A DNA stretch of 64,000 nucleotides from Tubiluchus corallicola (lineage: Eukaryota; Animalia; Priapulida): NCBI GenBank assembly GCA_030141605.1, contig JAQGDQ010000170.1, positions 1 through 64,000 on the forward strand. Direction: 5' to 3'. This document shows, one piece after another, positions 17,031 through 62,521 of the stretch; the stretch's first letter is position 1; every line of letters begins with the position of its first letter. The notes beneath the pieces are model-generated. The model was given only the letters and a program-made list of their open reading frames with translations, did no database searches and was not told the origin of the DNA. A program made the position numbers and the translations under genes.

Positions 17031-17059
17031 GAATCAGTGGCAGTAGGATTATTTTGACT

Positions 17060-25100: not shown

Positions 25101-28100
25101 AAAAGTGAAAAACAAAAAATGTCAAAAAATTTGAGATGCCGTCTGGATTTGAACCAGGGCCTTCTGCTTACAAAACACTGGAAATGCTGAATTTGGTTGC
25201 CAGTTATTAGGGACGAGATTTGCACTGCCTTGACCACTGAGTATAAAGTATCTGCAATGCAAGGAGAAGGTTCCCGGTTCAAATCCAGCTGCATTCTAAC
25301 TTTTCACATTTCCTGACTTTCAAGTTTAGTATCAAACTTCAATTAATTTTTTGTTTGTAACATCAATGCAATACCTTAACCTCAAAACTACTAGTACAAT
25401 TTGAAATCAGTGACAATCTACATTAATAACTTTGCTGAGGCTTGTTAAGAGACTGCAAAAAAACAACGCCATTACTTGGACACCGGAACTCAAGAAAATG
25501 TGCTGCCATCTATGGGATACAAATACACTTACGCTGACTGCTGCGAACTCACCTTTTCGCCGAGTTCGACCGCATACTGAATGTCCATCTCTAGCAAAGT
25601 TTCTATGTGGTCAGTAGTAAAGGCTACGGGAACTAGAAGTATGTGCTTCCGGCCAATTTTAACGAGGCCCTTAATGCACGTTTCCGTCGCGGGTGAAAGC
25701 CAGGGGATTGGACCAACCTGCAACAGCAAAAGCAATACATCTAGCTGCATAAATTAAGCAGAATGGCACTGTCACTTCCAGGGAATGGGACCAACCTGCA
25801 ACAGCAAAAGCAATACATGTAGCTGCATAAATTAAGCAGAATGGCACTGTCACTTCCACTGTAAGTTCCAAAGTAGCAAACTTTATTCGATTCGAATTCA
25901 CACTCCAGTGAAGAATGCTCACTCCATTAAACGCTTGAGAAAAATGGCAATAAAACTCCCTGAAACAAACTTGACAGACGAAAATTACAGAGTGTTTTTT
26001 CTTGTTAGGTGCAACAGTAATATGAGCAAAACTTCCCTTTGTAAGTTCACTACTGCATTTATTACATTACAAATTCACATCAGCATAATTATAATATTCG
26101 CCATCATGCATGTCTGTTACTGCCGTCTGCTTACAGGCATCCAATTCTACACCAAAGCTGCCAAAACGTACAACCGACTCTTTGACACTGCTAAGCTGTA
26201 CTAGCACTTACTTCTAGACTGATTGGCAATTTGTTGTTTGTAATTTGTACTTGTTGTAAAGAGGGTTAAACTAACTTAAATTATGTTCACTGATCAAAAG
26301 ATAATCAATATAGAGACTACTTCTACGAAATGAATACAGTGTTCCCTCGCTACTGTGTGGTTCGTTTATCGCGGACTCGCTGTTTTGCGGGTTTTCAAAA
26401 ATATTAATGCAAAATATTTATCGCGGTATTTTCGCTGTTTCTCGGGTTTTTGCGTTACTCCGTCTAAAGTATTTTTGCACATGCGTAGTACGTATTGTAC
26501 AGTAATATATAGATTTGATGAATTTTGCATACAAAATCACAAAATATATATTAAAAATATTAATTCTTACATTAAAAGAATATTATAAATCATAAAAAAT
26601 TACCATTTACAGTAAATAGTGTATTTATTCGGCGGATGAATACACACCAAAAACGAAATGTAGTACTTGTGCCCGCAAATAAGTATAGCATCCCTACTTC
26701 ACGGAAATTCACTTATTACGGAACGGAACACCCGCGATAAGTGAGGGAACACTGTATATTATAATAATTTAGTCAGTTCTTGTGAAGGTAGTTATAATAG
26801 AAAAATATAATCAGGAAACAAACATTCAATATGGCTGCGAGCGCCTTGTAACACGCTTTAAAATTTCAATTTTCATGAACAAATAGTGCAGCATAAGCCA
26901 GACTTAGGTGCAACCGAAATTATCTATGTCTTCGACTGAATTTAATTACAAATTTGCCACTTCTGCCACTTAGACTTTGTATTAAAATAAAATGCATTTG
27001 AATTGAATTACCTTCTGTCAAGAGGGCACCAATGACAGCATTAGAGAGAGTTATTGTTATTACACAATTATTGTATTGTTTGCTAGTCACATCTGCTAAT
27101 TTTATATGTATTTGTCTGTCTATATACTACTTTATTTCATCTGCACTTTTCTTTCTTTTGCCTACATGGTGATTCATGTATCACTTATAAAAGCTGTCTA
27201 ACCTGAACCAAATAAATTGTGTTTAAACTAAACTTATCTTGCTTCAGGCTGCCGAATGTTGGTTGTGATATAATTTTGTTCTTTCGGAAGTTTTTTGGAA
27301 AATGCGTGTTTGCAAGGCAAAAATGTCAATAAGTCGGCAATTACGCTTTTCCAATTATTCGCATATCTTGAATCTCTATTTCATGAGAATCATTTTGATA
27401 CCAAGTTCATCACTCTATGATATTGCTAAGCTGAGATAATCCACGTTGAAGTTGAGGTGCAGACTACACATTGAAAAACATAATCTTGAGAAAATTGCTT
27501 TTAAGGTCAGCCATTGTTTTTGTCGTGTTTCTACAAAACACTTAGCAACCGCACAAACGTTGATTGCTACGAACTTTGCAAGAACACGTTGAAGTTATGT
27601 TTAAATCTTGTAGCTGGTTCTTTCTAAGGAAAATTTGGGCAACAGAAAAACTGAAAAAGAAATAATTGCTTCCAAGAGCTACTACCGGAGTTTGAAAGTA
27701 CAAGTTTTTCACAATTGTAGTACAATTTCCAGTAAAGGGAGTATGATGTTATAGAACTAGATTTTTAGTATTTTCTAAACATTTTCCTTATAACTTCATG
27801 CTATAACATAAAAGTCCAATGTATTTAGCATTCGTTTTTATAAAAAAAATTGACATTTGACCAAATTTTTGGTACATTCTACTTTAAAGCATCATAACGT
27901 AGTTTTAACTATGCCGACTTATGGACGGTTTTGGTTTGCAAGAACAAATAATTTCTCACATTTAAACGTCACTGAAATTTTTACATTCACTGATAAAAAA
28001 TCATGGTTAGAGGGGTTATCCTTAAGCCTTTTTTTACACCAGACAACGAGTGGTCTGTCCAAACTGACACATTGTCTCCTGAATGCCAAAAATTTCTCGA

Positions 28101-31100
28101 AGTAATTTAATCATCCATTGTTATGCTCAAAACATATAGACATTTACAATCAATACAATTATTATTTATTTACTTATTAATAATTATTTATTATTATTAA
28201 TTATTATTATTCGTTAGTAATTATTTAATTATTACTAAACACACGTTTATTATTTGAGACATTTTTCAGACTTTCAGACATTACCCACCTTAGATTGCCA
28301 GGCTAACCTATATGAATGAGACCAGTTGAGAACCTCCATAATTTTTAACACAGATGCTCCGACTTCGGCTGGATAGGTGTCGCCACGTCTCACAACCTGC
28401 CAATCATCAATGCAATCAAATTACCTGTTTAAAAGATGCTGGGACACAAAATGTTTAAAGCAAAAAACCAGAGCCAATCTTAAACTGCAGGTCAAAACAA
28501 TCTACTCTTTAAAATATTGAAAGGAAACACGCTATTTTCTCAAAAATGACTTACGTGAAATGATTATTGTCACACAAACACAATTTCACATTCGCGCCAC
28601 TAGTTCTTCGCTGTTACATGCATTTCATCATTCGCTAGTTAGACGGGCACTAATGCCTGCATTTCGAAAATGAGTTGCATAAAAAACAGGTGCTGTACAC
28701 CTCAGTTCAGATGTGTTAGTTTCTGATGTACTGCACGCGTTCGAGCACAACGGTAAATTTGAAATTTGAATTTTTATCTTAAAATTTGCCTAGTTTTCAA
28801 GAGTTTCAAGAGTTTATTCATTTCCACATTGCATCTTACAATTATCATTAAAATACAGATTATTATCCATTTAAGTAAATATAAATATAAATATAAATAA
28901 ATGCATTATTATCGAGAAATTACAAAATGCAGCATATACATGTGCAAATTACATTACAGAACAATTTTGATGCATACAGTTTGAGCCTAAAAGCATAGCT
29001 TGACAGGACAAACTGTATGTGAAAAGTATGTTTTAGTACAACACACTGAATATCTTACAGTAACAATGTACTTCAATTTTCGCCTTCACAAACACATGCA
29101 ACACGCTTGTGGAATATTTTTCCTGTTGAAAATTATTTTCATTTGTGATGTCATCAATAGTTGGGCTCGCCCGCCATTAATTAAGTTTTTAATCTATTAT
29201 TTAATTATCAGATATGCTTTTGCGCTATTATTGGTATTAAAATGTATACTTATTACCGAACTTCAAAATGGGGTAGTATATGAAAAATCATGCTGTCTTT
29301 CTTTAAAAAATATCTTAAGGCATGTATACAATTGAACTCAACTAAATCGGATTTTGTGAAAATGTTAGTTTAACACCGGACGGATGATGTACGATATCTG
29401 CACTATTCACATTTCTTACCTTGCAATTTACAATACATTATGTACGTAACAGGGTGTTAATCGTAGTACTACAGTAGGGGCTGCTTAATAGACTCACTTT
29501 GGGATGGAAGTATTTTGACCCAATTAACCGACTGAGTCAATTAGCCGATGGGTGTAGCTTACTACTACTACAGGAGTATAATGACCTGTCACCTTAGTAT
29601 GCATTGCAAAGGCTGTAAATGAATTTTACAAATGAAATTTATTTAAGAATATTTAATTTATATAAGTGAATTAATAAAAAAAGGTCGCACAAATCTGATT
29701 GTTTCCACTAAAAATTACAAAAATTCCCATACAGATAAAAACATTGAAAATTTGTTGCTGTATCCTGCACACATTCATTCAAAACACCTAGTCACTTAGT
29801 GCTTGTGCTGCAGTTGGTGATGACCATTTTTCTCCTGTGAAAAGCAGCGGGAACTTCAAAAGCAAACCGCTGGTCAAGTGATTAAATGTTTAGCTTCTAG
29901 ATACAACGAGGTTAATTACAGTGAAGAAGCGGATGACAGATTCAAAGCGAAACCGCTATGCTAGTATATTTGTGCATATGATAAACATACTGTACCTGCT
30001 TACAAACAAAGCTGTGCTTAACGTGACTGTTTCTACGTATATTATAATGCAGATAATCGACGTATAGAGACATAAAAGAAGCAAAAGCTCTCTGAGCACA
30101 ACACAAGTGTCTTTTTAAGTATGTGAAGTAAAAATATTGAGTCAATTATGCAGAGTTGTTTGAGTCAATTACAGACACTTTTTATGTACATTTGAATAGA
30201 AGCGGCCCGTACCAGATATTTTTGAGTAAATTAAGCGACTGTGTCTATTAACAGCGCCGACTGATTTGTATTACAGCATATATTACCGACATAGGTAGAG
30301 AATGGGCAGAAAATAGCAGCACGACGTCATGGCGAACCTCCAATGGAAATTCTTCTAGTTTCTTCTTAATGTTGTCAGCATGTGCCTGCAAATGCATTAA
30401 GAGATACTTCAGTAGAGAGTGTTTTTAAGTATCAAGTACAACAATATACGTATCTTATTTAGCTTTAACTTGTTAGCAGTATTTCAAACAAGTAAATTTT
30501 TCTATACTTTTCATAAGCCAAGATTAAATCCAAGAGTACACAATATTAAACAAATACGCACTAATAACAAACACGACAACAATTCTATCACTAGACACCG
30601 AGTTCAACTTTGGATACCCTGTCATCAAATTTAAAACAAATCAAGTCTTTCGACGAATTGAAATCAAAATTAAAAATACATACATTAAATCGTTTTGAAA
30701 ACCCAACATACGTAAACGATAATATATATTCATCCGCAAATTTTATTTACACATGTCCATTTTAAATTGTGTGTATATATTGTATATAGTCTATTATAAT
30801 TTGCGTGTAACATTATAATGTATATTTTGTTTTAAATTTTTGGTACAGTAGTTTTTAGTTTGTACTGGATGCATTTGCCTTTAACAGTTGTGTGAATTTT
30901 ATTCTCATGCTGCGATGTTCTTTTATGCTTTTATAGTTACGAATATATATATATATATGCCATAAAAAATATATATATATATATGAATATATATATATTG
31001 AACATAAAAAATCGATATTCATAACTATAAAAGCATAAAAGAACATCGCAGCATGAGAATATATATATACATATATATATATGAATGCACACTGTTAAGT

Positions 31101-34100
31101 ACTATAGATAAAAGATACTGAGCAAGTATGTACAGTTGCCCGCTTCAAACGCAGTAACACTGTTGGGATACTTCCCTTAATAATGGAATTGTTACAGTTA
31201 AATTTCTGAAAATGTAACTCATTACTGTTACAAGTTACACGATGAAAAATGTGACTTGTCACAGGTAGAGTTACATTTTTTAAAACGTATCTTTCTGAAA
31301 TGTTCCTATCACAGAATGATTGACAACAACTAGCGAAAGAGACCTCTGCTAAACCTGGGAATGTGGGCCATCGATCGATCGTGCTCCACCGTATGTTCGA
31401 AGCGTTAACTCTGGCAGCGTAGTGTCTGGCTATTGCATTTAAACTGCTTCCCATTGTTGAACAGCTATACTGCGGATACATGCTAAATGCCACAGCGTGT
31501 TCAACACCGTCACTGAAAAATAAAAGTTCCACTTGTGATGACTGTATAATTATCAAAAACATTTTTAACATTTTCACAGAAATACCAATAAATGTTTATA
31601 GTTAAAATTAAAAACAACAGTACTACAGTGTTCCCTCACTTATCGCGGGTGTTCCGTTCCGGGCCCACCAGTGATAAGTGAATTTCTGTGAAGTAGGGAA
31701 CTGCTTGGGTTCGCTGCCAGAAAACCTAGAAGTTGCAGAATGTTTGGGTAGCATCGTAAGGCTCGAATAAATTCAGTCTCAAATGAAAACTTTGCAAATA
31801 GCGGATGAAAACTACGCACACGTCAGCAAGTAGCATCTCAAGCGGACGCAAGTACTACATTTCGTTTTTGGTGTGTATTCATCCGCCGAATAAGCACACT
31901 ATTTACTGGTAATTGTTTATATTCTTTTAATGTTAGAATTAATATTTTTGATATATTTTTATACATTTTGTGATTTTTTTATGCAAAATTCATCAAATCA
32001 ATACATTACTGTACAATACACACTACGCATGTGCAAAAATACTTTAGACGGAGTACCGCAAAAATCCACGAAACAGCGAAAATACCGCGATAAACGAACC
32101 GCGAAATAGCGAGGGAACACTGTACATAGAATACTACTTGTAATTAACGGCACAGTACAAATTTGTGTGTACATAATCATAAACAGAATTCTAAGTTAAT
32201 AATTATTATTGTATACCTAAAAATATATGGATATCAAATTGGAAGAAAATATACTTACAAATATATCGATATCAAAATGGAAGAAAATATACCAAAAAAT
32301 ATATCAATATCAAATTGGAAGAAAATATACTTAAAAATATATTGATATCAAATAGGAAGAAAATATACTTAAAAATATATTGATATCAAATAGGAAGAAA
32401 ATATACTTAAAAATATATCGATATCAAATTGGAAGAAAATATACTTAAAAATATATCGATATCAAATTAGAAGAAAATGTATTTAAAAATATATCGATAT
32501 CAAATTGGAAGAAAATATACTTGAAAATATATCGATATCAAATTGGAAGAAAATATACCTAAAAATACATGGCTATCAAATTGGAAGAATACATACCTTT
32601 CCATTTGTTCTATGGTATCTTCTGTAAATGGAGGGACGTATCTAAATCCAACGTAAAACTGATGAGGTGCTGTAATAGTAAACATCGGCTTTAATAACTT
32701 CATAAACCTCTTTACATTTGATGCAACAAGTTGTAATGACAACGCACATCAAAAGAGCACAAACGGACGATACAAAAACACGTAATTACAAAGTACAAAA
32801 AATAATAAAATTTTGTGATTATATAAAAATGAAAACTGGCATTTAAAATCTTCAAAAAAGCAATAAGAGAACTGTCTCAAAAGTCCAGGTTAAGATTAAG
32901 AAAAATCAACAAATAACTAACTATTCTGTTGGACATATCTATCATGGCAAAATTGTTGAGAATTAATAGATTTAATTAAATGATCCAATCTAATTAATTG
33001 ATTAGAATCACTGTTTATCAAAACAATGAAAAATTATTACCAAATTCGGGACAGACTTCATCTAGTTTTTTCACCATTCCTTCAGCCTGCTTCCGCGTCC
33101 AGTAGAGAATTGGTGATCCACCTCCAATGTGACGGTAGTGTTCCTGGATGGAGGGTGTCCGCCGTTTTGCTATCATAGGCGCAAGTGTGCTGCAGGTAAG
33201 CAAGAAACAGTCTCTCAGAAATACAAAAAAATCACTTGTATTTTAACACAAAAAGCTGGAATGCAAAGGCCCATTTCACAGTGAAGATGTAAGGAAAAGT
33301 GATGCTCGGAATTGCTGTCACAAAAATCAAAAAACTTCCTGAAAATTTCAGATTTTTCTCGAAATCCCTTGCTGCAAGGAAGTTCATTTCACGGTGAAAC
33401 AGTCAGCTGCAACTGCTTTACGAGTTTTATACTGTATAACCATGTTTAAGTTAAGTTATACTTGCGGTATTTCTGATATACAAAGTACAACTAATAATGT
33501 TAGTCAATGTAATGACAGACCTGTTTGTTTTTTTAGTAAAGTTCTACTAACCGCTTAAAAATCTTAAAATATACATATATAAAGTGAATATGTGCCTGCG
33601 TTTTCATGAATATAGCCATTGATGTTGCATTAATAAAACATAAAAGGGTCAGTCTGTTAAAAGAGAGAGTAAATCTTATAATTTTATGCTGAAATGTTTT
33701 AATTGTTGTTCGCTAAATAAGAAAGAAGTAATTGAGTAGTTAAAGTTAAGACTGAATCCACGAGGATTTCTCATGAAAATGGAACATGCAGTATTTCGAC
33801 TGTGGGGCAAAATTCCCCATGAGGAGGATGCATAGCCTCTAGTTGGCAGCAGAATTGCTCATGAGGAACTGCACGAGGAATTTTACCACGTGTCCTCACT
33901 GTGAAATGCGCCATAAAAAACAACGTGTTCCACTTTCGTGAGGAATGATCCCAAAGAATTTCTCCTGGAAGCATTTTGCTGCGTGTCCTCACCGTGAAAT
34001 GCACCAAATTTGAGTAAATGAGTTTTTATGATTATAAATCAAGAAAGATATAATAAGAAAACTTTTGACATGTTCCCAATTAAAACAAGGAGGTTGCTTC

Positions 34101-35885
34101 AAAAGAATCCACAAAATAACAAATTTGTACTGAAAAGTTTCTCCTGCCCTTGTACTGGTTATAGTCTTATAGAACATTCATTTTTCCAAATAAATGAAGG
34201 AATCCTGAAGCAATAATCTGAAGAAATTCATAACACTTTGCTGGGGCTTCAAACACAAAGCCAAGAACTTGTCAATGAGAATTCCCTTGAAAATATGATC
34301 ACACTTGTTGTCCAAACATTTCGCCCAAACAAAAACATTGCCTTTGTTTGCACAATGGTACAACTACGCAAAAAACAAAAGATCAGTCGTTGTACAGGAT
34401 GCCCCATGAGAGCAATTTTTCCAGTTGCTGAGAATATAACGTAAGTATGCATGCGTACTCTTGAAATGGTAACGGTATCAGTTCTTTGTCACTAAACAAA
34501 TTAAATAAGAAAGAGTAGACATCGTCTAGCATTTCTGGTCCGCCCATATTCACCATCATTATCCCTGTCTTTACTTTAGATCTGAAATCCAAAAAAAATT
34601 ATGTTGTTTTCATGTAAATTGTTCAAGCAAATTTCTTTAAAAAATGAGTTATAATTTACTAATATTTAGAGCCCAGAGCCGCGCCATTTCAGCTGAGCTC
34701 CAGCCTGTTTATTTCTACAGTCGACCTAGCCAATGAGAAACCCAGCTTTAGTCGCGTCAGCCGCTCAGTGATGGGAGTCGAGCTAGCCGACATTTTTGCC
34801 GGCTGCAAAGATTTTCGTTCTTTCGATTATCACATGACACTGCAAATCACTGGTTGAAATATGGCAAATGCATTGCAGATTCACGGTCAGATCGTGCGTG
34901 TGCTGGCAGAGATACTAAACTTTAGAAATTTTTGAACGAGAAAGCTAGTTAATTCAAAATCAAGTATACAAATAGGCTTTAGTCACACGTATGGGATCAT
35001 TTTGGTGTTTTGGTGATTCATCAGTAATCAAGACAAACTTCAGCAAGAGTTGGATTTAAATTATATATATACAGATGCAATAAATCCATTGCTTTTCTGT
35101 AATAATAAAAAACTGATCTGTAATGCATCATTTGAATTTGGACATCAACTTTTTTCTGTGTATGTATAAGCAACATGAATTATTTAAAAAAATTGCCTCA
35201 ATGATTTAACAGTTAACAGCAATTTATCATTTATTTAGTTAACGAAAATTCGCAGCTTTAGCTGACTTAGCAGATTTTTTTCAGCTGATGTAGTAGCAAC
35301 TCACTCAGTTTCGGCCAAGCTAGCTGATTTACTGTGTGAGTCAGCTGATGTAGTAGCAACTGACTCAACTTCAGTCGAGCTAGCTGATTTACTGTGTGAG
35401 TTAGCTGATGTAGTAGTAACTGACTCAGTTTCAGCGGAGCTAGCTGATTTATTGTGTGAGTCAGCTGATGTAGTAGCAACTGACTCAACTTCAGTCGAGC
35501 TAGCTGATTTACTGTGTGAGTCAGCTGATGTAGTAGCAACTATGTGAAAAAAGAATGGGCATTGAAAATGGGAGCGCCCAAACATGTAGTGATTGCGACT
35601 TTAAAGTGATTTTACTAGTTACATGAGGCACTTATTGCAGTTTTATTACTAAATCCGCCTAACATTTTTTGCGAACATTGAAATAAGCCTAACTTCCTAG
35701 ACTACTTGACATTTTCTTTAAGGAAATAACACTACTTTGACATACTTGGCAGGCAGTTTGGTGATATTCTCATCTTGAGTAGTAACACTTGCAGTTGAAC
35801 ATTTTGATATGCATTCCTTATAGCTGCTAACACACTTCCTCGCAATGCGAGACAATGAAAGAAGATGTCTCATCATCAAATCCAT
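22198..35885 (-). CDS. FECH: Ferrochelatase, mitochondrial, 410 aa, 10 coding exons
   Basis: Exons 35885-35746, 34581-34459, 33189-33041, 32669-32597, 31512-31344, 30385-30287, 28396-28289, 25717-25553, 23437-23381, 22347-22198; all GT-AG and phase-consistent (1233 nt). Motifs [46 protein letters not shown] and 2Fe-2S ligands CPRCTNPRC; N-terminus resembles a transit peptide. Confidence 0.97.
22734..23301. mobile_element. Complete Kolobok-like MITE in the last FECH intron
   Basis: Perfect TIR AGGAAAACCGGACGATT / AATCGTCCGGTTTTCCT flanked by TTAA; AG...CT termini rather than piggyBac CCC...GGG. Partial sister copy at about 46500-46950. Confidence 0.85.
25078..25355. repeat. Palindromic element with two opposed tRNA-like B-box arms
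   Basis: GGTTCAAATCC on plus near 25276 and on minus near 25146; outer inverted repeats aattaacttttgatacc / gtatcaaacttcaatt. Confidence 0.55.
25700..25858. repeat. 78-bp tandem duplication spanning the acceptor of FECH coding exon 8
   Basis: Two near-identical units; acceptor positions 25717 and 25795. Confidence 0.92.
26337..26754 (+). mobile_element. pogo/Tigger-like MITE
   Basis: ta|CAGTGTTCCCTC ... GAGGGAACACTG|ta. Confidence 0.85.
27340..27945. repeat. Copy of the ~600-bp interspersed family
   Basis: Reverse-complement match to 21340-21930. Confidence 0.75.
28456..29305 (+). mobile_element. Kolobok-like MITE with internal insertion
   Basis: ttaaagcaaaaaaccagag ... tgctgtctttctttaa; colinear with 55205-55818 apart from about 28795-29040. 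Confidence 0.75.
29472..30263. mobile_element. Tc1/pogo-like non-autonomous element
   Basis: Imperfect TIR CAGTAGGGGCTGCTTAATAGAC / GTCTATTAACAGCGCCGACTG. Confidence 0.55.
30901..31060. repeat. Near-perfect intronic hairpin with ~45-bp arms and AT-rich loop
   Basis: attctcatgctgcgatgttcttttatgcttttatagtta versus taactataaaagcataaaagaacatcgcagcatgagaat. Confidence 0.9.
31626..32122 (-). mobile_element. pogo/Tigger-like MITE, inverted copy
   Basis: Same CAGTGTTCCCTC TIR with TA flanks. Confidence 0.85.
32228..32590. repeat. 40-bp minisatellite, about 9 copies, abutting a FECH splice donor
   Basis: Unit gatatcaaattggaagaaaatatacttaaaaatatatc; ends a few nt from the donor at 32596. Confidence 0.93.
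33265..33990. mobile_element. Harbinger-like MITE with duplicated right end
   Basis: ggcccatttcacagtga ... tcactgtgaaatgcgcc; a second tcaccgtgaaatgcacc about 90 bp further on. Confidence 0.5.
35265..35541. repeat. 60-bp minisatellite with alternating A/B variants (120-bp higher-order unit)
   Basis: Units alternate cagtttc.gc..agc and caacttcagtcgagc. Confidence 0.92.
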
Positions 35886-36352
35886 ACATGTAAACAGGTT
35901 AAAGCTGAAACAAGCAAATTATTAAAGAGGATAATGGACACCATATGCAGTTTTAACATCAGCGCCAGGGACGATGACCACACGAATGCGGGAACCTCCA
36001 ATCTTTCACTGCAGAGAATGCTGGACCGGCTTTGTTACACTGTTGTCAAAAAAACTGAATCATTTAGTGACAGTATAACTTTTTGACGTCAAGTTCATAT
36101 CTTTCATTATTAGATGTGTGCTTGATAAACCCAAATCGATCATTATTCGGCATAGTTAAAACTACGTTATAGCTTCAAAGTAGAATATACCAAAAATTTG
36201 TTCCAGAGATCGTCTAGAATGGCTTGTATTAACTATACTGGGGCAGAAATATAATAAACTTGACGTAGTTCACTAGTTCCGATGATTAGTAACAAACTAT
36301 CCCATAAAACTACATGAAAAACGTGAGCCATAACCAAACATAAGCAACCTAC

Positions 36353-36470
36353 GTGTACAGACTCCCCTGCACCTTGATGATACAGCTCACACTCTCGAAA
36401 TAACCGACAATGAAGACGATTCGCTCGACATTTGAACCTTCTGCTATCCGCGACGACCGACTCTGCTGAT
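36353..36470 (-). promoter_or_regulatory. Probable non-coding first exon of FECH containing a 14-codon uORF (36431-36387)
   Basis: Donor cac|gtaggt at 36353/36352; the next exon has acceptor gtttcag| at 35904, 19 nt before the ATG. 5' end is a guess. Confidence 0.5.
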
Positions 36471-38080
36471 TTCGGATTTTAGGCATTTTCCTTGTGTTTA
36501 CAATAAATAAAGCCACAAGCTTAAAATCAATCTACTTGTCACATGCCGCAATACAGAGAAGTTTATAATACTTACACATTAAACTATTTAAAAATTTGGC
36601 TTGCCATAGACTCAAATTGACTGGTGCTGAGCATTTATTATAGACAATAAGGTTTGGCCAATTTTTCTCAAATCGAGCAGTACCGATTAGGGAGTCTTTG
36701 CCTGCACATGTTGACGGTGCACCCCTGGTGACTGCACAAAATATTAAGTTATCTAACAGTAGCTTAAATATAGTTACATAAATTTCTTGCACATGATAGA
36801 ACCGTGTAAGTAGTTCATCTATTTGCGTTGCTACCACACTCTTGCAAATATTGTATTCGTATGCTTTTTGCTAACATGTCTCATATAATTGTTTTTATTT
36901 ACTATTGGATGTGAATAAAATAAAAATGATTTTACGTTTCAGTATGATGTAAATATATACGTGTTCTGTTTGTTTAATAAATGCGTATTTAAGCGAAACC
37001 AAATAAAATACATCTCAGTGTTTATGACCAAAAAATATAGGTCTACTGATAGATCAAGAACTATTAAAAGTGCAGAAGTGAGTGTCTGTAATGTGTACTT
37101 GTTTTAATTTTTATCTGTATAATATCTGTGAAGCGCTGAGTTCCATATGAGGAATGGATTTTTGAAATTTTTTCAAGAACTATGATATTATAACATAAAC
37201 TATATAATTAATATATATAATGGATTATATAATATCCAAGCATAAAGAAAAAATTAAAGAAAAAAGATTGATTATATTAAATGCTTTTGGTAATATCGAG
37301 TGAAAAGGAGGTGCTGCAGTTCCGCAGTGACCATACAGGAGTCGCCACTGCCTGGTGGCATTTATTTAATTTATATAAATCTACTTGCAGATGAAGAATG
37401 AAAAGTGCACATCGCGAGAATATTACTCAATGCTCATCCTGTAAAGAATCTGTTCCACCTGCCATCATTGGCTGAGTGGTTTACACTTGCGAATAAAAAA
37501 ATTATAACAATCTCATAGCAGCATTGCTGAAGTTTGCCTGACCTGGTCTCACATGATACCATCTTGCAACATGTACTTTTTAAAAAGTTAATGACATAAT
37601 GATAATAATAATAACAATAGATTTCAGACGTGCTTATTGCGTTAGTATTTTTATAGAAAAAGTCATTTTCAATTTCAGTAATCAAAATCATACTCAGTCA
37701 CCAAAGATAGGCATAGTTTTACCTTTAGAAAACAGGTTGTTTGATATGTTTCCATATAGTAACTTTTGCGATAGTAACAACTTCTGACAAAACTCAGAAT
37801 CAATACGGACTTCTTTGCAAACTAAGTTATTTATTAACAGCTACAAAGTTCTACAAAACCGAAAAATACATGAAAAAAAACTGACAAACATAATTTCCGG
37901 AAATCAAAATAAAATAAGGCAAAAAATAACCAAATTGTAAATCAATAACAGCAGCTACAGAAAACTAGAAACACAGAAATCTGGATAATTCCTGTAGAGA
38001 AAACAATTGTTAACTGATTAGTAGAAACTGATCACATTTTGTACCAAAAAAAAACTGAGAAAAGTTTAACAAAAGTTCTA

Positions 38081-41000
38081 TTAATAGCCTCTTCCACGAC
38101 GACGGCGCCATCCAGCCATGCCCAAACCAACGCCCCAGTCTCCTTCACCTTCCATTGCAGAACGCAACTCACAGTAGGACTTTGTCAAAGATTGCCTCTT
38201 CAAGTGGACAACATAGGTGGCGATACCGTACTTGTCTTCCGGGCAGCAGGGGAATGTTTTTTCTTCCACCTCAGTGTGGGATCCAGTGACCTTCCACTTG
38301 CGGTTAGATTCCGGTCTGTAGAAGCCAAGGTCGAATCCCTCGTCGCCCTCCTGTATTTGAAGAGTGATGGCAGTAGTGGGGTGGGCCCACGATCCGAACA
38401 TGAGGCGACACATGTGCTCGTCTCCTCGTGCCCATTTCAAGTCAGCGAAGATACAATGGACGACATGTGAAGTAGGAACCACCCAAAGACAATCACCATT
38501 TGCATGAATTTGCACTCTTATGTCGTTCTCATGAACAGAAGACATCAACCCACGTCCTGCGCTGTAAAACATAGTTGAATTAAATATTCTCTGCATTAAA
38601 TAGTGTACCATAACTTCTATTCAATAGCACAAGGATTTTTCTTAGTTGGAATCAAATTTCAAACGCAAATACTTGTCGCTCGGCATTATGGGGACGTATG
38701 CAAAAAACGTGTGCACTTCTAACAAGTTCGAATACATGCAAGTCATGATGTTTAAAATCAAAGAAGAGCTTTTTTGAATTAAGTGCAGTCAGAAAAAATA
38801 AAATTTTCAGCCGTAATTGTGGATCATTTTACATAGTTTGAGAATTCTGGTTAATATTTTGCAGTTTGTTAGTACACCACAAATAACTTTTCATGTCAAA
38901 TGCTCAAAACAAATTAAAATTAGTGGCCAATCAAGGTAAGGGACTACACTTGTTATGAAGCAAAAATGTTCATTCAATAATTCTTTTCACAATTCCAGCA
39001 ATTTATGATGATCGTGAAAAGGTCAAATGTTAAGTGTGCTAGACAATGTATTTGTATACACTTGACAACGCCTCGCAGCCCATGGCATTGTAATAGGAGC
39101 AATTTTAATAGCTAGCTAGAACCTTACCTAGTTCCATTTTTTCTTATTCCTGCTGGTAAATCACTCTATGCACAGACTAATGCATAACTAAATAAAGTCT
39201 GCGTAAAACAACTGAAGTTAACGAACTGATGCAGAAGACGGCTTTGCTTTACACACACGTCATGTAACAGTTGTAATTAAGAGGCATTGCTGTGGTACAC
39301 TTAACATTTGACTTGCAGCAACTGTGCATGCGCATAACAAAAGTATGAAAAAGCTTTAGTAATAGTTAGAAATAAGTTAGAAATAAGTATTTGTTGATGT
39401 TATTTGTAAAAGTAATTGACATGGAAACAATTTTCTGATAAAGAACAACAACGTGTAATTACACTAATGCTTACTCATTAAACATCATGACGTCGGGAAC
39501 CCATATCACATCAGATGACAGATAAAGAGCATTGATGTTGCCGTATTCTTCTGGATCCCAACTAAGAGCTGGATCATTCCACCTCTAAAAACAAGAATTT
39601 TCCCAAATATACTTCAAATCACATTCAGTGTAATATCCAGTGGTAGCTTGTGTATAGGTGCTGTGGAATTGCAGCACCCACTATTTTCACTCGATATTAT
39701 AGATAATATTCAATATAATGAGTCAGTTTTCTTTAAGTTTTTATTTATGCTTGTACATTACGTATAAGAATGTCAGTAGTCATTCCACTAGTACATGAAA
39801 AAATTACAAAAATCCTTGCATACAACTGCGCGCATCACAGTTCCAGGAGCGAGGTGATTGGCCGTCGTGCACATGCAGTCATGCGCACATGTCCGAGATA
39901 AGAAGCTGCATGTTAGGTAGAGAAAGCACTGTCGCTCATGCAGTGCAAGTGTACAGAAGTACTTCTATAAACTAAATTTCCTTTTCATATGTTTGCTTCA
40001 TTTTACACAATATTAAAGCAATGGCTAAAAATTTTCTGAAGCAGCACCCCCACAAATTTTAACTACGAACCGCCAGTGCTAATATTAAAAACTGATCGAC
40101 GGTTAATGAAAAACAGAGGACATAGCATCGCTCTCTGTGCAGAAGAACCAACGCGGTGGCTGTGAAGAGAAACAGACAATCTCCGAAAACGATGTTGTCC
40201 GTTTGTTTTGAAAACATTTACTCTCAATACTAAGCAGCATCACTGAAAGTACGCCAGGCACCTACAAGGTTCTTCAGTAGCAGTTTTAAAACTCGATAGC
40301 TGGTCAGTTTCCAGTGCTCAATACTGACACAATTCGTGACATGATCGGTTTTACCAAACAATCCAGTTTTGTTAAATTTACACAGCGTATACAGATACGA
40401 TGAGCACAATCAATGCACACCATGTAATTTAAGCAAAAAGTAACACAAAGGATTATTGCAAAAGTGTTTTTCAAGAAAAAAGAATATAATTAATGGAATT
40501 CATAGTACTCACCAGTCTAGTATAACCACTGAAGGTCATTGTCTGATCACGAGGATCCTAAAATGAAAAAAAAATTATGAAAAAACTGAAGTTCATCAAT
40601 GATTTCCTAGAATTGTCAGCTAAAATTAAAGCAACAATGAAAATGTGGAACAGAGAAGCAAATATGGCTAAAAGCAGTAATGAAAAAGTGTGACACAGAA
40701 GTGAAAGAAAGAATGACATGATAAAGCCAAGGTTGGTGATAAACTGAAAACAAAAGGCAAGACAATTACAACAAGTTTAAACAACAGTTTAGCAAAAAGG
40801 GTGCGAAATTTGAAAGGGGGGAGGGGTGATTTTTCTGAAGTGTTTTTACCTCTTTCTTAAATTTGTATGGCATTCAAAGTTAATAATTACGGTTAGCTGT
40901 AATCAAGAGATCTCCGGTTCAAGTTCCATTGATATCAAAAATTTAATTTGATTTCTTTCTATGTTAGTTGGAGAAGTGTCTCTTTTTGTAAGCAAAAGCA

Positions 41001-43545
41001 ACCACCATCAACGAGTCAAAAATGGCTACTGGGCTAATAGAAATCTCAATGAAAACTGCTTCAATGCTTAACAAATCTAGAAGCATCTAAAGGTTGGTTC
41101 AGATAGTAGATAATGTGTCACAATTGACATTTGCTTCAACAAAAAACTTTGGCACAAAAGTGGTACATTTACTACTACAGAAACCTAATTCCACTTTCCG
41201 AAAACCTAAAACCTAATGCGGCTAGTTCTTTGCTGTTACATGCATTTTGCGTTTAGTTACTTAGAGGGGCACTAGCATCTGCATCTAGGAAATGTAATGC
41301 ACAAAAAACAGGCGCTATGTACCTCTCAGTCCAGATGTTGTTCAGTTGTGATGTAGTGCACACGTTCGAGAGCTCACGTGTGAGCATAAAGGTCAACTTG
41401 AAATTTAAATTTTTAAACTTAAAATATGCTGAATTTTTTGTATCACACTGAGCGTTGTACACTAGTACAACACCTCAATTCTCATTTTTGGAAACTTACC
41501 ACATCCTCCAGGATGATGAGTGCCACACTAATGTGGACAGCCGTTGGCTCTGAAGCGGATGTAGATGGGCGGACATGATGGTCATAGTTCTGAAATAAAT
41601 GCGCCTGGAGCAGTTTCTCGTCCTCACTTGCTCTAACAGCAACTAAAAAAACAGAGTTTATTTAAAATCAAATCTGTAACCACCAGCATTTCAACACCAA
41701 CCAGTGTCATTACCAGCGGTGGTTCGTAGCTAAAATTAGTGGGGGCGCTGCTTCAGAAATTTTTAGCCATTGTTTTAATATTGTGTAAAACAAAAAAACA
41801 TACGTAATTTTAATGTTGTAATTTTAAACAAACAAATTTATACATAAACTTGATAAAATTCTAAACAAAAAGTATTGTTTTCTTACGAATAGACTAAATT
41901 GTCTTAGTTCAAGAATGTGCCGATACACAGCTTTTCAAACACGTGGCAACCGACAACACACAGCGTGGCAGGAGCACAGACATGTGCGCATGCACATAAC
42001 AGACAAACACCACGTTGCCTGGACAGTGAAGCAAACAGTACTCACGTGCTCCACTTCCGCGCAAGTACAAAGAAAGAACTAAAGAAAAACGACTTATCAT
42101 ATTGAATATTATCGATAATAATGAGTGAAAACAGGGGATGCTGCAGTTCCACAGTACCTATACAAGAGCCGCCACTAGTCATTACACAGTTGACTTTACA
42201 AAATTGCTGCTGATGGCAAAGTTGCACAATGAATGATTGTAAGCACAGTTATTTAAGGAATTATGTCGTCTTACTGTCTGCAGTAATTGCGAGTTCAGAC
42301 TAGCAAGTCACTCAATAAGTGACCCACAAGCATGTTCATACCAGAGAGCAAGACTTGGAGAGAGTTACTCTCCACAGTAAGTGCCAGCTGACCCTCTCTT
42401 CTCTATTCACTGCGAGAAGTGTCGAGAGTAATTCGCCCATGCGTTTAGACTGGACAGTAAATTAACTCTCAGCAACTATCGGAGAGTTTGCAATAAATTG
42501 TTGACATAACCCGCAAAGCAGTTCACGCTTGCGAGCTTTCTGTCAGTGAGAAAACACGAAGCAAAGAAAAGTGATAGTCTAAACGCGCAGTAACACACAT
42601 TGTATTAGAATTTAGAAAGGGACGAACAATGGAAAAGTGATAATATTAAAAGCAATGATAAAACAAAGAATGATTAAAACATAAGACATTTAAAACAGAC
42701 TGCAAAACATTCACAGACCAAAAGCTAATTCGAATTAGCATCACAAGTTTGTTGTTTAGTTTAAGCTGGTTACCAAGCTGCAAGCCAGTGCTGTCTGAAA
42801 ATTCTGTTGTCATCATAACTAATAAGAAAAGTAAAATTTAACTGCCTAAACTGCTAAAGCTAACTAGTTTTAACTTTTAGTTTAACATACATACTGATTC
42901 TCACTAGTGATAGAGCTAAAATAGGAGCAACATAGAAATTTTAATATTTGTTATTTATTGAACCATTAAGTAAAGAAATCACAGAAGACAAAAAGACTTC
43001 AAATACAGCTGAACAAAGAAACCACATATAAGTGGTGTAATAGCTCAAGCACAAAAACCCATACAAAAGAGCAACATACATATATATTATAAACTTAATA
43101 TTACATATGTATTACAGTTAGTCAGTCAATCAGTCTTGCACTGAGTTATCTCAGCCGGGCCTGTCTTCAAATATTTTGTGGACCAATCTAGCATTAATTT
43201 TAATAACTTCTACATCTTGTGATGCATTTAAGAACACGAACTGCTCATTAGGAGACATATAATGAAAGTTAGGACAAAAATCAGAAAGAATAAAAAACAT
43301 TCCTCTGTTATATGAGCGTATTTAAATGCTAACCACATTAAAAAATTTTCCATGAAACTTTTTCATATTCAGTTTAGAAATAAATTTTAGGAAAAATTCA
43401 CACAAAATGTCTATTTTACGAAAAAAAATTTAATGAAAATACATTAAAGCTATTGAAAATAAGTGAAAAATGGACAACAAACTCAATATTTATAAAAACT
43501 TATCTTACTTAATGCAGAGATGAGGAAAATCAATTGAAGCCACAT
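38081..43545 (-). CDS. Acetylcholine-binding-protein-like secreted Cys-loop ligand-binding domain (271 aa if the last exon reads through)
   Basis: Exons 43545-43509 (signal MWLQLIFLISALIAVRA), 41642-41500 (LFQNYDHHVRP), 40557-40513 (45 nt), 39584-39475 (110 nt, WNDPALSWDPEEYG, IWVPDV), 38561-38081 (FGSW, FPCCPEDKY). The 45- and 110-nt exons are typical nAChR sizes. No transmembrane exons found before FECH. C-terminus uncertain because of a possible donor T|gtgagt near 38173. Confidence 0.88.
39638..40078. mobile_element. hAT-like MITE family (copies about 41714-42180 inverted and 45447-46500)
   Basis: CAGTGG... termini and shared internal blocks tgaagcagcacccc and agaagctgcatgttaggtagag. Confidence 0.65.
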
Positions 43546-44707
43546 TGTTCTTCCAAGGAGCCAAGAACAGCAATGAACAGTTGAAAAGAGATGCTTCCAC
43601 AGAGACAGCCAAACATCAAGTGACACAGACTCGTTGGTTTTCCTTCTCTCCTTGAACACGATCTGCCCAAATGTCGGGCCATCTGGGAGATGCAGTCAAG
43701 CTGCCCAGCAACCTAACCCTTCTTATTTACTTTGCCGGACCCTGGACAAGTTTTTCTTTAGCCAAGGTTGCGTCTTGGGTGTGGAATTTTTCATTTGCAC
43801 TAGGGGAAGTGCTGATAAGAACGGGTGTGCGAAAACGAGGCTTTGTCGTGTTACTTTTAGATTGACAAGTTGTATAATCTTATTTGGTAGACGTCTAATT
43901 CGTCTAAACAAACGATCACAACACTTGCATCAAAAAGTAAAGAAAATGCTACGGCAACTGTATGAGATGGTCACGCCCACTCACACCTTGGCATTTAAAT
44001 GCAAATGATCTCTGTCATTGTGCTCTTAAATATCAGACCATCAGTGAGTATCAACTTCACTGGGTTACTGAGATCAAGGCTAGTATCGAAGCGTGTGAGA
44101 AAAAGGAAGCAGGTTACGTGATGCAAATACAAGTCGTGAGATATCTTCATCTTTTTACCATAGCAACCGCCAACAACTCACCACAGCTAAACAGCCAAGC
44201 TGCACATTAAATACAAACTTCCAAAGACATTAAATATAAACTTCAGTTCACACACTTGTTTTACTTCATATACAATAATTAATACACGCATAGGAAATTA
44301 GAAATATATATATATATATATACATATTATCTCGAATTGAAAAATAAACTGTGCATCTTTAACAGTTAAGAAAAAACAGAGTTGGACTTGGTCAATGTGT
44401 ATGAGCCAAGCACCTGCTCAGAGACATTATTAACAACGCTCCGCTTAATTGCAAATAGAAGATAATATATAAAAGTTTTAATTCAATGAGTCGACTTTCA
44501 TGCTCTCTCATCAGGAGCATTTTCCTTTTTTGATTTCTTCACAGGTTTTGCTATAAGCGCCCGCATCTTTAACAGTTAAGAAAAAACAGAGTTGGACTTG
44601 GTCAATGTGTATGAGCCAAGCACCTGCTCAGAGACATTATTAACAACGCTCCGCTTAATTGCAAATAGAAGATAATATATAAAAGTTTTAATTCAATGAG
44701 TCGACTT

Positions 44708-51440
<6,733 letters not shown>

Positions 51441-56365: not shown

Positions 56366-59300
56366 ATGTCATCACGAGGTCGGTCTCAATTAAAATCAAC
56401 TTCCAGAGCAAAAAACGTAAGCTAGCATATAGATAATAATATTATAGCTAAATACCTGCATCAGATGCTAGATACACCAGGTACTATAGCTAGTGAAGAA
56501 TAGTATCTTTAAGTACTTATCGCTGTCGTAAAATATGGCCATGACGAGTAACGACTTTGCAGTTGTGGATTTCAATTTTAACTATAATAATACTATAAAT
56601 ATGAAAAATCGATATTCTGTTAAGTCTGGCCAAAATTTAAAGTTGCGGAGCATGCTTAATTCGGTCTGAATCGAAATGATGTTAATTAGTTGCGTTATAA
56701 ACAATAAATTTTGGCAACGGGATGGAAAATAACCAAGAATTTTCTATTTTTTAAACGGATCTTTTTACTATCGTAGCATCTGTATGCAGGTATCTAGTAG
56801 TAGTACTTTGAAGGGAGCATTAATATTGTTGATATATTTATAGAGAAACAGGAGAGTTTGATAATCTGTGTGGGCTTCTAGTATCGGGATTTTCGTGGAG
56901 TTTCTTAAAGAGGTGGCAGAATATTTACTTGTATTGTGAGATGATTTCAAAGAATGGCCATTAACTAATCGTAAAGCGTAGTTTTGAAGTACATTTAACT
57001 TGATGTATGAGTCTCTTTTCACTTTTTGGTACAGTATGCAGGCATATATATAATGGGGCAAAATTAAAGTTTTGTAAATGAGAATTTTTGTTTGTTTTCA
57101 TAGCTATCCTCTGATTTGTCGATGGTACGAAGTACTTAATGCCATTTTTTTATAAATGTTGATGAACTGCTCTTCCCATGTAAGCATGTTGTCCAACTTA
57201 ACACCCAAGAAATTAACAACTTTTGACTGCACGATAACATCATTTTCTATTTGCAGGGATATAGCAGCTGTATTTTCAGTATTGTTAATTGTTGGGGATA
57301 ATACCATAAATTCTGTTTTGTCACTATTCATTTTTAGCTTGTAATACTTAAATGCCATGTTGATATTCTTTATGTCTTTTTCTAAGTACTGTTTTGCAAT
57401 GCTGATATTCTCGTGAGCCAGATAAATAGTCGTGTCGTCTGCATATTGCATAATACTTGAATGTTGTAGAACGTTAGAAATATTGTTGATGTAAAGGTTG
57501 AACAGTAGAGGTCCCAACAGCGTGCCCTGTGGGATACCTCGTTGAAGGTTAGCCCAATCTGGGAATGTTGTAGAGTTTATTTTAACCTGCTGCTTTCTAT
57601 TTTGTAGGTAATCATTAATTAATTTTAATGCTGATTGTTCAAATCCAAGTTCTTTCAAATTATCTAATAGTAGTGTGTGATTTAAACTGTCGAAAGCTTT
57701 ACTTAAATCTAGAAAAGCTGCTGCCACATATTTGTTTTTATCAAGATTATCTCGCCAGTTTTCAGTTACGTTTATTATAGCATCCACAGTTGAATGTTTT
57801 TTTCTAAATCCGAATTGATGTTTCGATAAGAGTTCATTTTGATTGACATATGTAATAATTTGATCTTAGATTACTCTTTCCCAAATTTTACTCATACAAT
57901 GAACTATTGATACTGGTCTGTAATTTATTGGATCATCTTTAGCATTCTTTTTGTGGATTGGTGTAATATTAGCTGTTTTGCATTGATCAGGAAATTTGCC
58001 ACGCATTATTATTTGGTTAGTGATATAGGTTATATGTGGAGCAATCAAATGCATACTGTCCTTTAGAATTTTTATTGGTATGTCAGATGTGCCACTACCT
58101 TTATTGGCATCTAAATTATTTATTATTTTTAAAATGTCAGCAAAAGTAACACTGGAGAATGAAAATTGGTTATTTGCAGCAGGTCCTACAGTTTTTAGTT
58201 TGTCTTTTATGGTATCAGTATAATCAGTCTGCAAATTAAAGTTTCCGAGGTTAACAAACGTCTCATTTAACAAATTTGCGTATCTTTGGGTTTCGTTATT
58301 GCGGTATTGTTGATTTTAAGTTCATGTAACCTATTTTGTTTATTTTTATGTTTATTTATAACATTGTTGATCACTGTCCATTTTTGTTTTGTAGTGGAGG
58401 CACTACTGCATTGTTTTTGAATATATCTGTTTTTTAGAATTTTATTAAGATTGTTGAATTTGTTTCTAGCTTTCTTGTACTTTATGTGGTCATTTTTAGA
58501 TTTAGTGTTAAGCCATATATAAGTTATTTTTATTATTTCTTAAATCATTAAGTTCAACATTTGTCCAATTACTTTCACAATTAAGCTTTGATTTGATGTT
58601 CAATTCTTTAACTTTTTTGAAAGGTGCATGAAGATCTAAGCAGTATTGGATATTGTTTATTAAAATGTCTACTTGAGTGTTTATATTTGTTGTAAGGTAT
58701 ATCTCGCTCCAGTTCATTTTAGCTAAGTCATTTAAAAAGTATGTCTCATTATAGTGTGTGAAATCTCTGAAACTTTTCCAACACGAATTATGATTTGCTG
58801 CATTAAAGTGGAATAATTTATCAGCAGTAATTATAAAATTGTGATCTGAATATTCACAAGGTATACTGTCATGAGCTATAAATTTGCAAGGGTTATTAGT
58901 AACAAAATGATCGATTAATGTAAAAGTCGTTTTATTGCACCTTGTTGGTTTATCTATAGCTACAAAGTAGGTAGTACAGTATAGTTAGAAAAAATTAAAA
59001 TATTTAATATTCTAGAGTCTAGACAGATAGACATCTAGATGCTAGGTTAGTAAAAAGCGTGGTTTAGAAAAAGAAAAATTTTTGGTTATTTTCAGTCCTG
59101 CTGCTAAAATTTATTGTTCATAAATTTCGGCCAGAATCCACAGCCAATAGATCTTTCATATGTATGATATCGTTTTAGTCACCATTTGCGACAGAATTCT
59201 GCAACTGTAAGGGTCTATTTGTTAGGAATTCTGCAACTTGTTGCGGCCATATTAAACGACAGTACGCGATAAGTATAAGTACTTAAAGACACTATTATTC

Positions 59301-62300: not shown

Positions 62301-62521
62301 TCATGATGTGTTGCGTCTGTCTTTCCATGGTTCTTCAAATCGTATGCGGCACATTGTCTGCTTATATAGCCTCAATTGACATGTACAAGCAGAAGAATCA
62401 AGTAAAGATGCAAAGGTTAAACAACTTAACTTCTGTGGTAGTTTACCTTATTACTGCCTTGAATACATTCATTGGAGGTTTTGGGATGCCATACTCGGTC
62501 TCGGTCTTGGATAAAAAGTAA
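56366..62521 (+). CDS. Ninjurin family protein, about 158 aa
   Basis: Confident exons 61180-61287 (NDYDTKKS...ALFMSNVSQLK) and 62261-62521 (two hydrophobic helices, LNNL...NTFIGGFG). Phase-0 upstream exons 56366-56416 and 59413-59469 are plausible but less certain. Confidence 0.85.
56497..59300. mobile_element. Foldback MITE split near its centre by a LINE insertion
   Basis: 56497-56760 and 59055-59300 are inverted repeats (aatagtatctttaagtacttat / ataagtacttaaagacactatt; ctggccaaaattta / taaatttcggccag). Confidence 0.65.
56775..58960 (-). mobile_element. Inactive CR1/L2-group LINE ORF2 (endonuclease end plus reverse transcriptase)
   Basis: PTR...LIDH...SDH endonuclease end; YRPVS, FLDLSKAFD, GIPQGTLLGPLLFNLYIN, QYADDT, FLGVKLD; broken by stops and frameshifts. 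Confidence 0.93.
59508..59982 (+). mobile_element. pogo/Tigger-like MITE, third copy
   Basis: CAGCGTTCCCTC ... GAGGGAACACTG|ta. Confidence 0.82.
60480..61135 (+). mobile_element. Decayed L2-type LINE 3' end; tail sequence also present at 60258-60332
   Basis: Translation NSAVRLIT...HDHFTPIL...LPI...FKIL...LHGLGPTYLTDLL...FKQHLKTHLF. Confidence 0.75.
61335..61770 (-). mobile_element. Kolobok-like MITE fragment
   Basis: Reverse-complement match to 55205-55818. Confidence 0.75.

What the first reader, a model, noticed from the sequence alone, without database searches (positions are those of the whole stretch)
38081..43545. Soluble AChBP-like protein with remodelled binding box and 14-residue Cys-loop
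Seen: signal peptide plus a full nicotinic-type ligand-binding domain with vicinal CC in loop C but no M1-M4 exons in the roughly 1.6 kb before the FECH leader. The Cys-loop is C-IFADLKWARGDEHM-C (x14, no FPFD). Established: receptors have C-x13-C with FPFD contacting the membrane domain; molluscan AChBPs have a shorter hydrophilic loop. The aromatic box reads loop A F (MMFN, usually Y), loop B W kept, loop C F and Y (usually Y and Y), loop D Y (usually W). Inference: an independently truncated secreted pentamer with shifted ligand preference, perhaps a decoy or toxin sponge.
Basis: partly seen in the sequence, partly recalled or inferred. Interest (0 to 1): 0.72.

Follow-up and report, generated by a model that had tools for sequence, protein, structure and literature searches.

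The report
Secreted, channel-less nicotinic receptor binding domain
This invertebrate gene encodes only the outer, ligand-binding half of a nicotinic acetylcholine receptor with no channel part, and it likely makes a secreted ring of five subunits that would soak up acetylcholine or similar amines with lowered affinity, an ordinary new member of a kind already known from snails, a marine worm and a spider.

Summary
Five GT-AG exons on the minus strand give an unbroken 271-codon frame: signal-like N-terminus, complete nicotinic ligand-binding domain, x14 Cys-loop, vicinal CC. No receptor transmembrane exon was found anywhere in the 64 kb; the same search found 19 of 20 spiked-in controls. The protein lacks the Cys-loop aromatic-Pro motif kept by 69 of 69 channel-bearing homologs and 0 of 13 channel-less ones, so it reads as channel-less without RNA. 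The consensus donor at 38172 leads only to an immediate stop, and the 30-codon tail looks exonic. The oddities are mostly precedented: loop A Phe and loop D Tyr occur in snail AChBPs, and Cys-loop length varies among AChBPs. The one notable point is joint loss of the K145/Y190/D200 positions, which predicts weaker acetylcholine binding. Independent origin is not shown (one clade not rejected, p-AU 0.42). Expression, secretion, pentamer and ligand are untested; no RNA run was listed. The scan noted a similar gene in another genome (e1-7469266). Verdict: real, new member of a known kind, modest interest.

The parts
43509..43545 (-). Exon 1 coding part: ATG and first 12 codons of the predicted signal peptide (phase 1)
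   Evidence: hydropathy; no upstream in-frame ATG in the ORF 43483-43695
41500..41642 (-). Exon 2: end of signal peptide, N-terminal helix, beta1
   Evidence: Pfam Neur_chan_LBD positions 3-40, E 7.8e-5, below cut-off
40513..40557 (-). Exon 3 (45 nt): beta1-beta2 loop (Pro62 where most receptors have Glu) and loop D Tyr72 at 40524-40522
39475..39584 (-). Exon 4 (110 nt): WxPD motif and loop A Phe110 at 39482-39480
38081..38561 (-). Exon 5: loop E, Cys-loop, loops B, F and C, beta10, tail and TAA
   Evidence: folds as the nicotinic beta-sheet region, mean pLDDT 80
38408..38455 (-). Cys-loop C148-x14-C163, lacking the aromatic-Pro motif
38387..38401 (-). Met166 (K145 position) to loop B Trp170
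38222..38254 (-). Loop C: Phe215, vicinal Cys217-Cys218, Tyr223, Ile225 (D200 position)
38084..38172 (-). 30-codon Gly/Arg-rich tail with Cys242; begins at a consensus GTGAGT donor but is GC-rich like an exon up to the stop
   Evidence: GC 0.58, above 11 of 11 known intron starts and 246 of 246 non-coding 89-mers; covered without gaps by one X1 contig
37991..38172 (-). Possible alternative intron (donor 38172, next exon from 37991) that would end the protein at residue 241 with a split T|GA stop
   Evidence: untested, no RNA
37830..37835 (-). First AATAAA after the stop, candidate polyadenylation signal
   Evidence: motif only

Best explanation
The locus is an intact five-exon gene for a nicotinic ligand-binding domain with no channel, and it likely makes a secreted AChBP-type homopentamer that would bind acetylcholine or related cationic amines at its subunit interfaces with lowered affinity and so buffer them outside cells. 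Shown: exon structure, domain, absence of channel exons in the window, loss of the residues that couple binding to gating. Inferred: the signal peptide sends it into the ER; the two disulfides form; five subunits assemble as in AChBPs; the all-aromatic box with loop B Trp still holds a cationic nitrogen; loss of the Y190-type hydroxyl with its Lys and Asp partners weakens or retunes acetylcholine binding; with no pore to open, binding only removes or stores ligand.
For: Unbroken frame and canonical splice sites although the nearest known protein is only about 34% identical, and 22 of 24 columns conserved in 85% or more of channel-bearing homologs are kept: signs of continued selection. No transmembrane exon: best window piece 8.9 bits, best minus-strand piece downstream 6.0 bits, while 19 of 20 held-out receptors had an exon-sized piece above that background. 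Cys-loop [FYW]-P-x-[DE]: 69 of 69 channel-bearing rows, 0 of 13 channel-less rows, absent here; Glu at the E45 position 50 of 69 versus 0 of 13, Pro here. All five box positions are aromatic, both disulfide pairs present. Closest solved relatives are alpha7 receptors (E 8e-10) and Biomphalaria AChBP1 (E 6e-8). Y190 ring and hydroxyl each give about 2 kcal/mol, Y93F has little effect, K145 acts through the Y190 hydroxyl (PMC4845029, PMC11655062, passages; muscle receptor data).
Against: No RNA evidence either way. Signal peptide not run through a predictor. No N-glycosylation sequon, whereas 12 of 13 channel-less homologs have at least one. The exact box combination occurs in 0 of 84 homolog rows, so the ligand may not be acetylcholine; Alpo4, with loop A Phe, did not respond to acetylcholine (PMC10338036, passages). 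The roles of known AChBPs are themselves described as unclear (PMC4569296, passages). Two channel-less-looking rows that keep the Cys-loop motif (P0024, P0074) were dropped after inspection because they end in M1-like text; with them the count is 2 of 15. Some of the 13 may be incomplete gene models.
Confidence: 0.55

Rival explanations
1. The secreted pentamer has moved off acetylcholine and scavenges another ligand, such as a dietary or self-made nicotinic alkaloid or toxin.
For: Three of five box positions differ from the consensus (3 or more in 6 of 69 channel-bearing and 1 of 13 channel-less rows); K145, Y190 and D200 positions all changed (7 of 69 and 1 of 13 rows do the same). Toxin binding is proposed for other AChBPs (PMC3423370, section 11).
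Against: No ligand, tissue or organism information; the box stays fully aromatic with loop B Trp and the vicinal disulfide; the single swaps are seen in AChBPs that are classed as acetylcholine binders (PMC3423370, PMC8777805).
Confidence: 0.2
2. It is an ACCBP-like extracellular protein whose job is structural or mineral-binding rather than cholinergic.
For: Mollusc ACCBPs and Biomphalaria AChBP bind amorphous calcium carbonate (PMC3423370, sections 5 and 11). The mature domain is acidic (pI 5.3); tail Cys242 could link pentamers.
Against: The organism is not placed; acidity is common in the family; the ligand box is well kept.
Confidence: 0.08
3. The gene is silent or recently dead.
For: No transcript was seen; the X1 contig carries an Arg-to-His change in the tail (38097).
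Against: No stop or frameshift in 271 codons, intact splice sites, 22 of 24 core columns kept.
Confidence: 0.07
4. It acts as a decoy subunit that co-assembles with or docks on membrane receptors, or is held at the cell surface by its basic tail.
For: Arg-rich tail (pI 9.5); pre-M1 Arg234 is kept; basic tails also end P0139 and the Patella protein P0179.
Against: The Cys-loop and beta1-beta2 residues that face the membrane domain are lost; the tail may be spliced out; tail likeness was judged by eye only.
Confidence: 0.06
5. It is a normal receptor subunit whose transmembrane exons lie beyond the window or were lost by mis-assembly.
For: A consensus donor sits just after beta10; no GTRAGT occurs in 1,732 nt of the other coding sequence examined; the whole genome was not available.
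Against: 38 kb downstream hold no such exon and contain FECH on the same strand; X1 contigs cover 37296-38206 in two overlapping pieces; the Cys-loop Pro present in 69 of 69 channel-bearing rows is gone.
Confidence: 0.04

Closest known systems
Gastropod acetylcholine-binding proteins (Lymnaea, Aplysia, Bulinus, Biomphalaria AChBP; PDB 4aod, 1uv6, 2br7)
   Same: Signal peptide plus ligand-binding domain only; Cys-loop and vicinal disulfides; non-13 Cys-loop; loop A Phe as in BgAChBP1 (F92) and loop D Tyr as in Aplysia (Y55) (PMC3423370, PMC8777805).
   Different: Cys-loop x14 rather than x12 (Biomphalaria C126-C139); Phe at the first loop C aromatic; 30-residue tail; no N-glycan sequon; better sequence match to alpha7 than to snail AChBPs. 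Biomphalaria AChBP genes are reported to share only intron 1 with non-molluscan receptors (PMC3423370), whereas the 45- and 110-nt exons here match the alpha7 layout (recalled; one search found no paper to confirm).
Capitella teleta AChBP (PDB 4afg) and Cupiennius salei AChBP
   Same: Non-molluscan channel-less domains; the spider protein is 246 aa with a 16-residue Cys-loop (PMC4569296); Capitella AChBP matches exon 5 at E 1.3e-4.
   Different: No close kinship shown; neither sequence could be placed in my trees.
alpha7-type nicotinic receptor subunits
   Same: Best sequence and fold matches (E 8e-10; Foldseek E 8e-5); a Cys in loop E as in alpha7; intron after loop A Asn at the place where many predicted alpha7-type fragments begin.
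   Different: No M1-M4; FPFD, E45, K145, Y190 and D200 positions changed.
Mollusc ACCBP (amorphous calcium carbonate-binding proteins)
   Same: Secreted channel-less nicotinic domain (PMC3423370).
   Different: No evidence of mineral binding or of a shell-forming host.
Unstudied LBD-only gene models (Mya P0013, Gigantopelta P0065, Patella P0179, Gordionus P0158, unnamed P0030/P0076/P0096/P0155)
   Same: Same architecture and same loss of the Cys-loop motif.
   Different: About 25-32% identity to this protein; no supported grouping with any of them.

Membership tests
AChBP (soluble acetylcholine-binding proteins) | Complete nicotinic ligand-binding domain | tested here: met
   Pfam PF02931 over exons 2, 4 and 5; full-length BLAST to receptor domains
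AChBP (soluble acetylcholine-binding proteins) | No transmembrane domain | tested here: met
   Genomic level only; both possible 3' ends stop without a hydrophobic helix
AChBP (soluble acetylcholine-binding proteins) | Signal peptide and secretion | tested here: inconclusive
   Only hydrophobic stretch is residues 1-20; no predictor, no protein data
AChBP (soluble acetylcholine-binding proteins) | Cys-loop and vicinal loop C disulfides, loop B Trp, aromatic box | tested here: met
   C148/C163, C217/C218, W170; all five box positions aromatic, three differ from consensus
AChBP (soluble acetylcholine-binding proteins) | Homopentamer | not testable with these tools
AChBP (soluble acetylcholine-binding proteins) | Binds acetylcholine or nicotinic ligands | not testable with these tools
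   Needs a binding assay
Gastropod AChBP clade | Groups with Lymnaea, Aplysia, Bulinus and Biomphalaria AChBPs | not tested
   Those sequences were not retrieved; in a sequence search alpha7 scored above them
Nicotinic receptor alpha subunit | Vicinal cysteines in loop C | tested here: met
   C217-C218
Nicotinic receptor alpha subunit | M1-M4 channel domain | tested here: not met
Nicotinic receptor alpha subunit | Cys-loop with aromatic-Pro-x-Asp motif (usually x13) | tested here: not met
   Motif in 69 of 69 channel-bearing rows, absent here; x14 itself occurs in 4 of 69
ACCBP | Binds amorphous calcium carbonate, expressed in mineralising tissue | not testable with these tools
   No expression or binding data

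The most novel reading that the evidence does not exclude
An independently derived secreted nicotinic pentamer, from an animal lineage with no described AChBP, that has shed the whole K145/Y190/D200 and Cys-loop gating machinery and now scavenges a non-acetylcholine ligand such as a nicotinic alkaloid or toxin, with a spliced-in or spliced-out basic tail that sets whether it is free or surface-held.
Probability: 0.15. Interest if true: 0.55.

Novelty: new member of a known kind. Interest (0 to 1): 0.28.

Why it matters
AChBPs are the standard soluble models for nicotinic drug and toxin binding, and their natural roles are still unsettled. A divergent one with a naturally hydroxyl-poor box and none of the K145/Y190/D200 triad would be a handy natural test of what that triad gives to binding once gating is gone. 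If it binds something other than acetylcholine it would widen the known jobs of these proteins. As an architecture it is not new: channel-less nicotinic domains are frequent in invertebrate genomes.

Tried and rejected
Whole genome not held, so paralogs and distant exons could not be searched. No RNA holder listed; X1 behaves as low-depth DNA contigs and X2 covers only repeats; no evidence on expression either way. Word-indexed search with exon 5 found nothing at E 0.001 among 9 candidates; the profile search gave 6 hits of 4,675 candidates; neither gave a close ortholog. Atlas search unavailable. Tail as a frameshifted M1 remnant: it is the same length as the alpha7-type M1 exon remainder, but 346 of 600 shuffles scored as high; rejected. 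Hydrophobic frames after acceptors at 37954 and 37060 do not match the M1 profile or a Pfam family (37954 frame); rejected. First transmembrane profile held rows with ligand-domain pieces; the two clear ones were removed. Trees: 93-row quick tree leaves the protein in a polytomy; 37-row tree likewise, one clade not rejected. Host placement by FECH: bilaterian, long branch, top identity 64% to Capitella, unresolved. A 21-nt mini-exon at 42915-42895 would keep the frame but is not needed; left open. No complex prediction sent: only an exon fragment could be given. Papers: PMC4780051 not held; PMC4621750 passages gave nothing of use; searches gave nothing of use. No supplements were read; those of PMC6896357 may list binding-site variants that bear on rarity.
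Full report
Gene model. Reading the minus strand and testing boundaries by script gives five exons: 43545-43509, 41642-41500, 40557-40513, 39584-39475 and 38561-38081. All introns are GT-AG and the frame runs 271 codons to TAA. [quoted passage not shown] Exon 5 matches human alpha7 best among solved structures (E 7.8e-10), then Biomphalaria AChBP1 (6e-8) and Capitella AChBP (1.3e-4). Folded alone with a 115-row alignment it gives beta strands at mean pLDDT 80, with the tail low in confidence, and Foldseek ranks alpha7 first.

Is the channel really missing? A profile of post-loop-C regions from homologs found no significant match in 3,379 six-frame pieces of the window (best E 0.067, on the other strand). 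With 20 receptors held out and cut into exon-sized pieces, 19 of 20 had a piece above the best window background of 8.9 bits, while the best minus-strand piece downstream of the gene scored 6.0. FECH follows on the same strand from about 36 kb to 22.2 kb. A DNA-like run, X1, covers 37296-37998 and 37972-38206 in overlapping contigs, the second without gaps, which supports the local assembly. The whole genome and RNA were not available.

The protein carries its own signature. Of 159 proteins then in hand, 92 covered most of the domain; I dropped 8 near-duplicate cluster members, leaving 69 channel-bearing and 15 channel-less rows, and then 2 more (P0024, P0074) that end in M1-like text and look like cut gene models. 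The Cys-loop motif [FYW]-P-x-[DE] is in 69 of 69 channel-bearing rows and 0 of 13 channel-less rows, and is absent here; Glu at the E45 position is in 50 of 69 and 0 of 13, and is Pro here. The protein keeps 22 of 24 columns conserved in at least 85% of channel-bearing rows; the two misses are the Cys-loop Pro and the first loop C Tyr. That pattern fits a domain kept under selection after release from a channel. The receptor residue numbers (E45, K145, Y190, D200) are assigned by alignment; E45 as a coupling residue is recalled.

The 3' end. A consensus donor lies at 38172, two codons after the end of the domain. The tail behind it has GC 0.58 up to the stop and 0.27 after it, above 11 of 11 known intron starts (mean 0.30) and 246 of 246 non-coding 89-mers, so it is probably exonic. 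If the donor is used, the strong acceptor at 37991 makes a T|GA stop at once. Both forms lack a channel. The tail is not a recognisable M1 remnant (346 of 600 shuffles score as high). X1 differs from the window at 38097, an Arg-to-His change in the tail.

The binding box. Loop A Phe occurs in 7 of 69 channel-bearing and 3 of 15 channel-less rows, loop D Tyr in 4 of 69 and 1 of 15, first loop C Phe in 6 of 69 and 2 of 15, and a x14 Cys-loop in 4 of 69 and 1 of 15; the exact five-residue combination occurs in 0 of 84. In print, BgAChBP1 has Phe at loop A and BgAChBP2 Phe at the second loop C Tyr (PMC3423370, passages and sections 5, 11), Aplysia AChBP has Tyr55 where alpha7 has Trp (PMC8777805, passages), and AChBP Cys-loops vary, 16 residues in the spider protein (PMC4569296, passages). 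The more telling change is that the K145, Y190 and D200 positions are Met166, Phe215 and Ile225; all three are lost in 7 of 69 channel-bearing and 1 of 13 channel-less rows. In the muscle receptor the Y190 hydroxyl gives about 2 kcal/mol, Y93F does little, and K145 acts through that hydroxyl (PMC4845029, PMC11655062, passages). So weaker acetylcholine binding is a fair inference; a new ligand is possible but not shown. Alpo4, an annelid receptor with loop A Phe, remains an orphan that did not respond to acetylcholine (PMC10338036, passages).

Origin. No homolog exceeds about 34% identity over the domain (338 hits at E 0.001, 3 at 1e-10). The protein sits in a polytomy in both trees. The free 37-row tree needs 5-7 changes between channel-bearing and channel-less states, but the AU test does not reject one clade of the 14 channel-less rows plus this protein (p 0.419). 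Independent truncation is therefore unproven. The 45- and 110-nt exons match the alpha7 gene layout (recalled; one search gave no paper), while Biomphalaria AChBP genes are reported to share only intron 1 with non-molluscan receptors (PMC3423370, section 11); this mildly favours an origin separate from the snail proteins. The host is a bilaterian invertebrate that FECH does not place further; earlier notes on this genome also leave it unidentified (unchecked).

How common. PMC6896357 (passages and section 5) counts 4-34 LBD-only gene models per genome across twelve molluscs, annelids and cnidarians, some no doubt fragments. My searches returned such proteins from Mya, Gigantopelta, Patella and the horsehair worm Gordionus and from unnamed sources. 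The scan recorded a similar gene in another genome (e1-7469266); nothing matched by sequence.

Verdict. A real, intact, channel-less nicotinic ligand-binding-domain gene that most likely works like an AChBP. Shown: structure, missing channel, lost coupling residues. Inferred: secretion, pentamer, ligand buffering, lowered acetylcholine affinity. Unsupported so far: independent origin and toxin-sponge role. New member of a known kind; interest 0.28.

Noticed in passing
window 22204-36550, minus strand: Ferrochelatase (FECH) gene with at least eight core exons and a C-terminal Cys cluster; long branch in a tree, top identity 64% to Capitella. A transit-peptide-like exon lies near 35900-35750.
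   Followed up: partly
window 44354-44773: Near-exact 210-bp tandem duplication (209 of 210 letters) over the stop codon and 3' end of the upstream minus-strand ORF 44708-44950; may be a real duplication or an assembly slip.
   Followed up: partly
window 42895-42915, minus strand: 21-nt AG...GT segment in intron 1 that would keep the frame and add seven residues to the signal peptide; possible mini-exon.
   Followed up: partly
window 62114-62521, plus strand: Ninjurin-family ORF (Pfam E 3e-13).
   Followed up: no
window 56768-58984, minus strand: Broken LINE-type element with reverse transcriptase (Pfam RVT_1 E 1.9e-31).
   Followed up: no
window 15261-18809: Two tandem arrays of short units whose translations resemble the C-terminal end of non-LTR retroelement ORFs (resemblance by eye, Pfam hits there are repeat noise).
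   Followed up: no
proteins P0030, P0076, P0096, P0155 (also P0077, P0178): A supported clade (100/96) of unnamed channel-less nicotinic domains, most ending in a short spacer and hydrophobic tail that looks like a GPI-anchor signal; a membrane-tethered AChBP type may be worth its own look.
   Followed up: partly
protein P0158 (Gordionus, horsehair worm): Channel-less nicotinic domain with a 38-residue Cys-loop.
   Followed up: no
proteins P0139 and P0179 (Patella): Channel-less domains ending in short Arg/Gly-rich tails, loosely like the tail of this gene; judged by eye.
   Followed up: no
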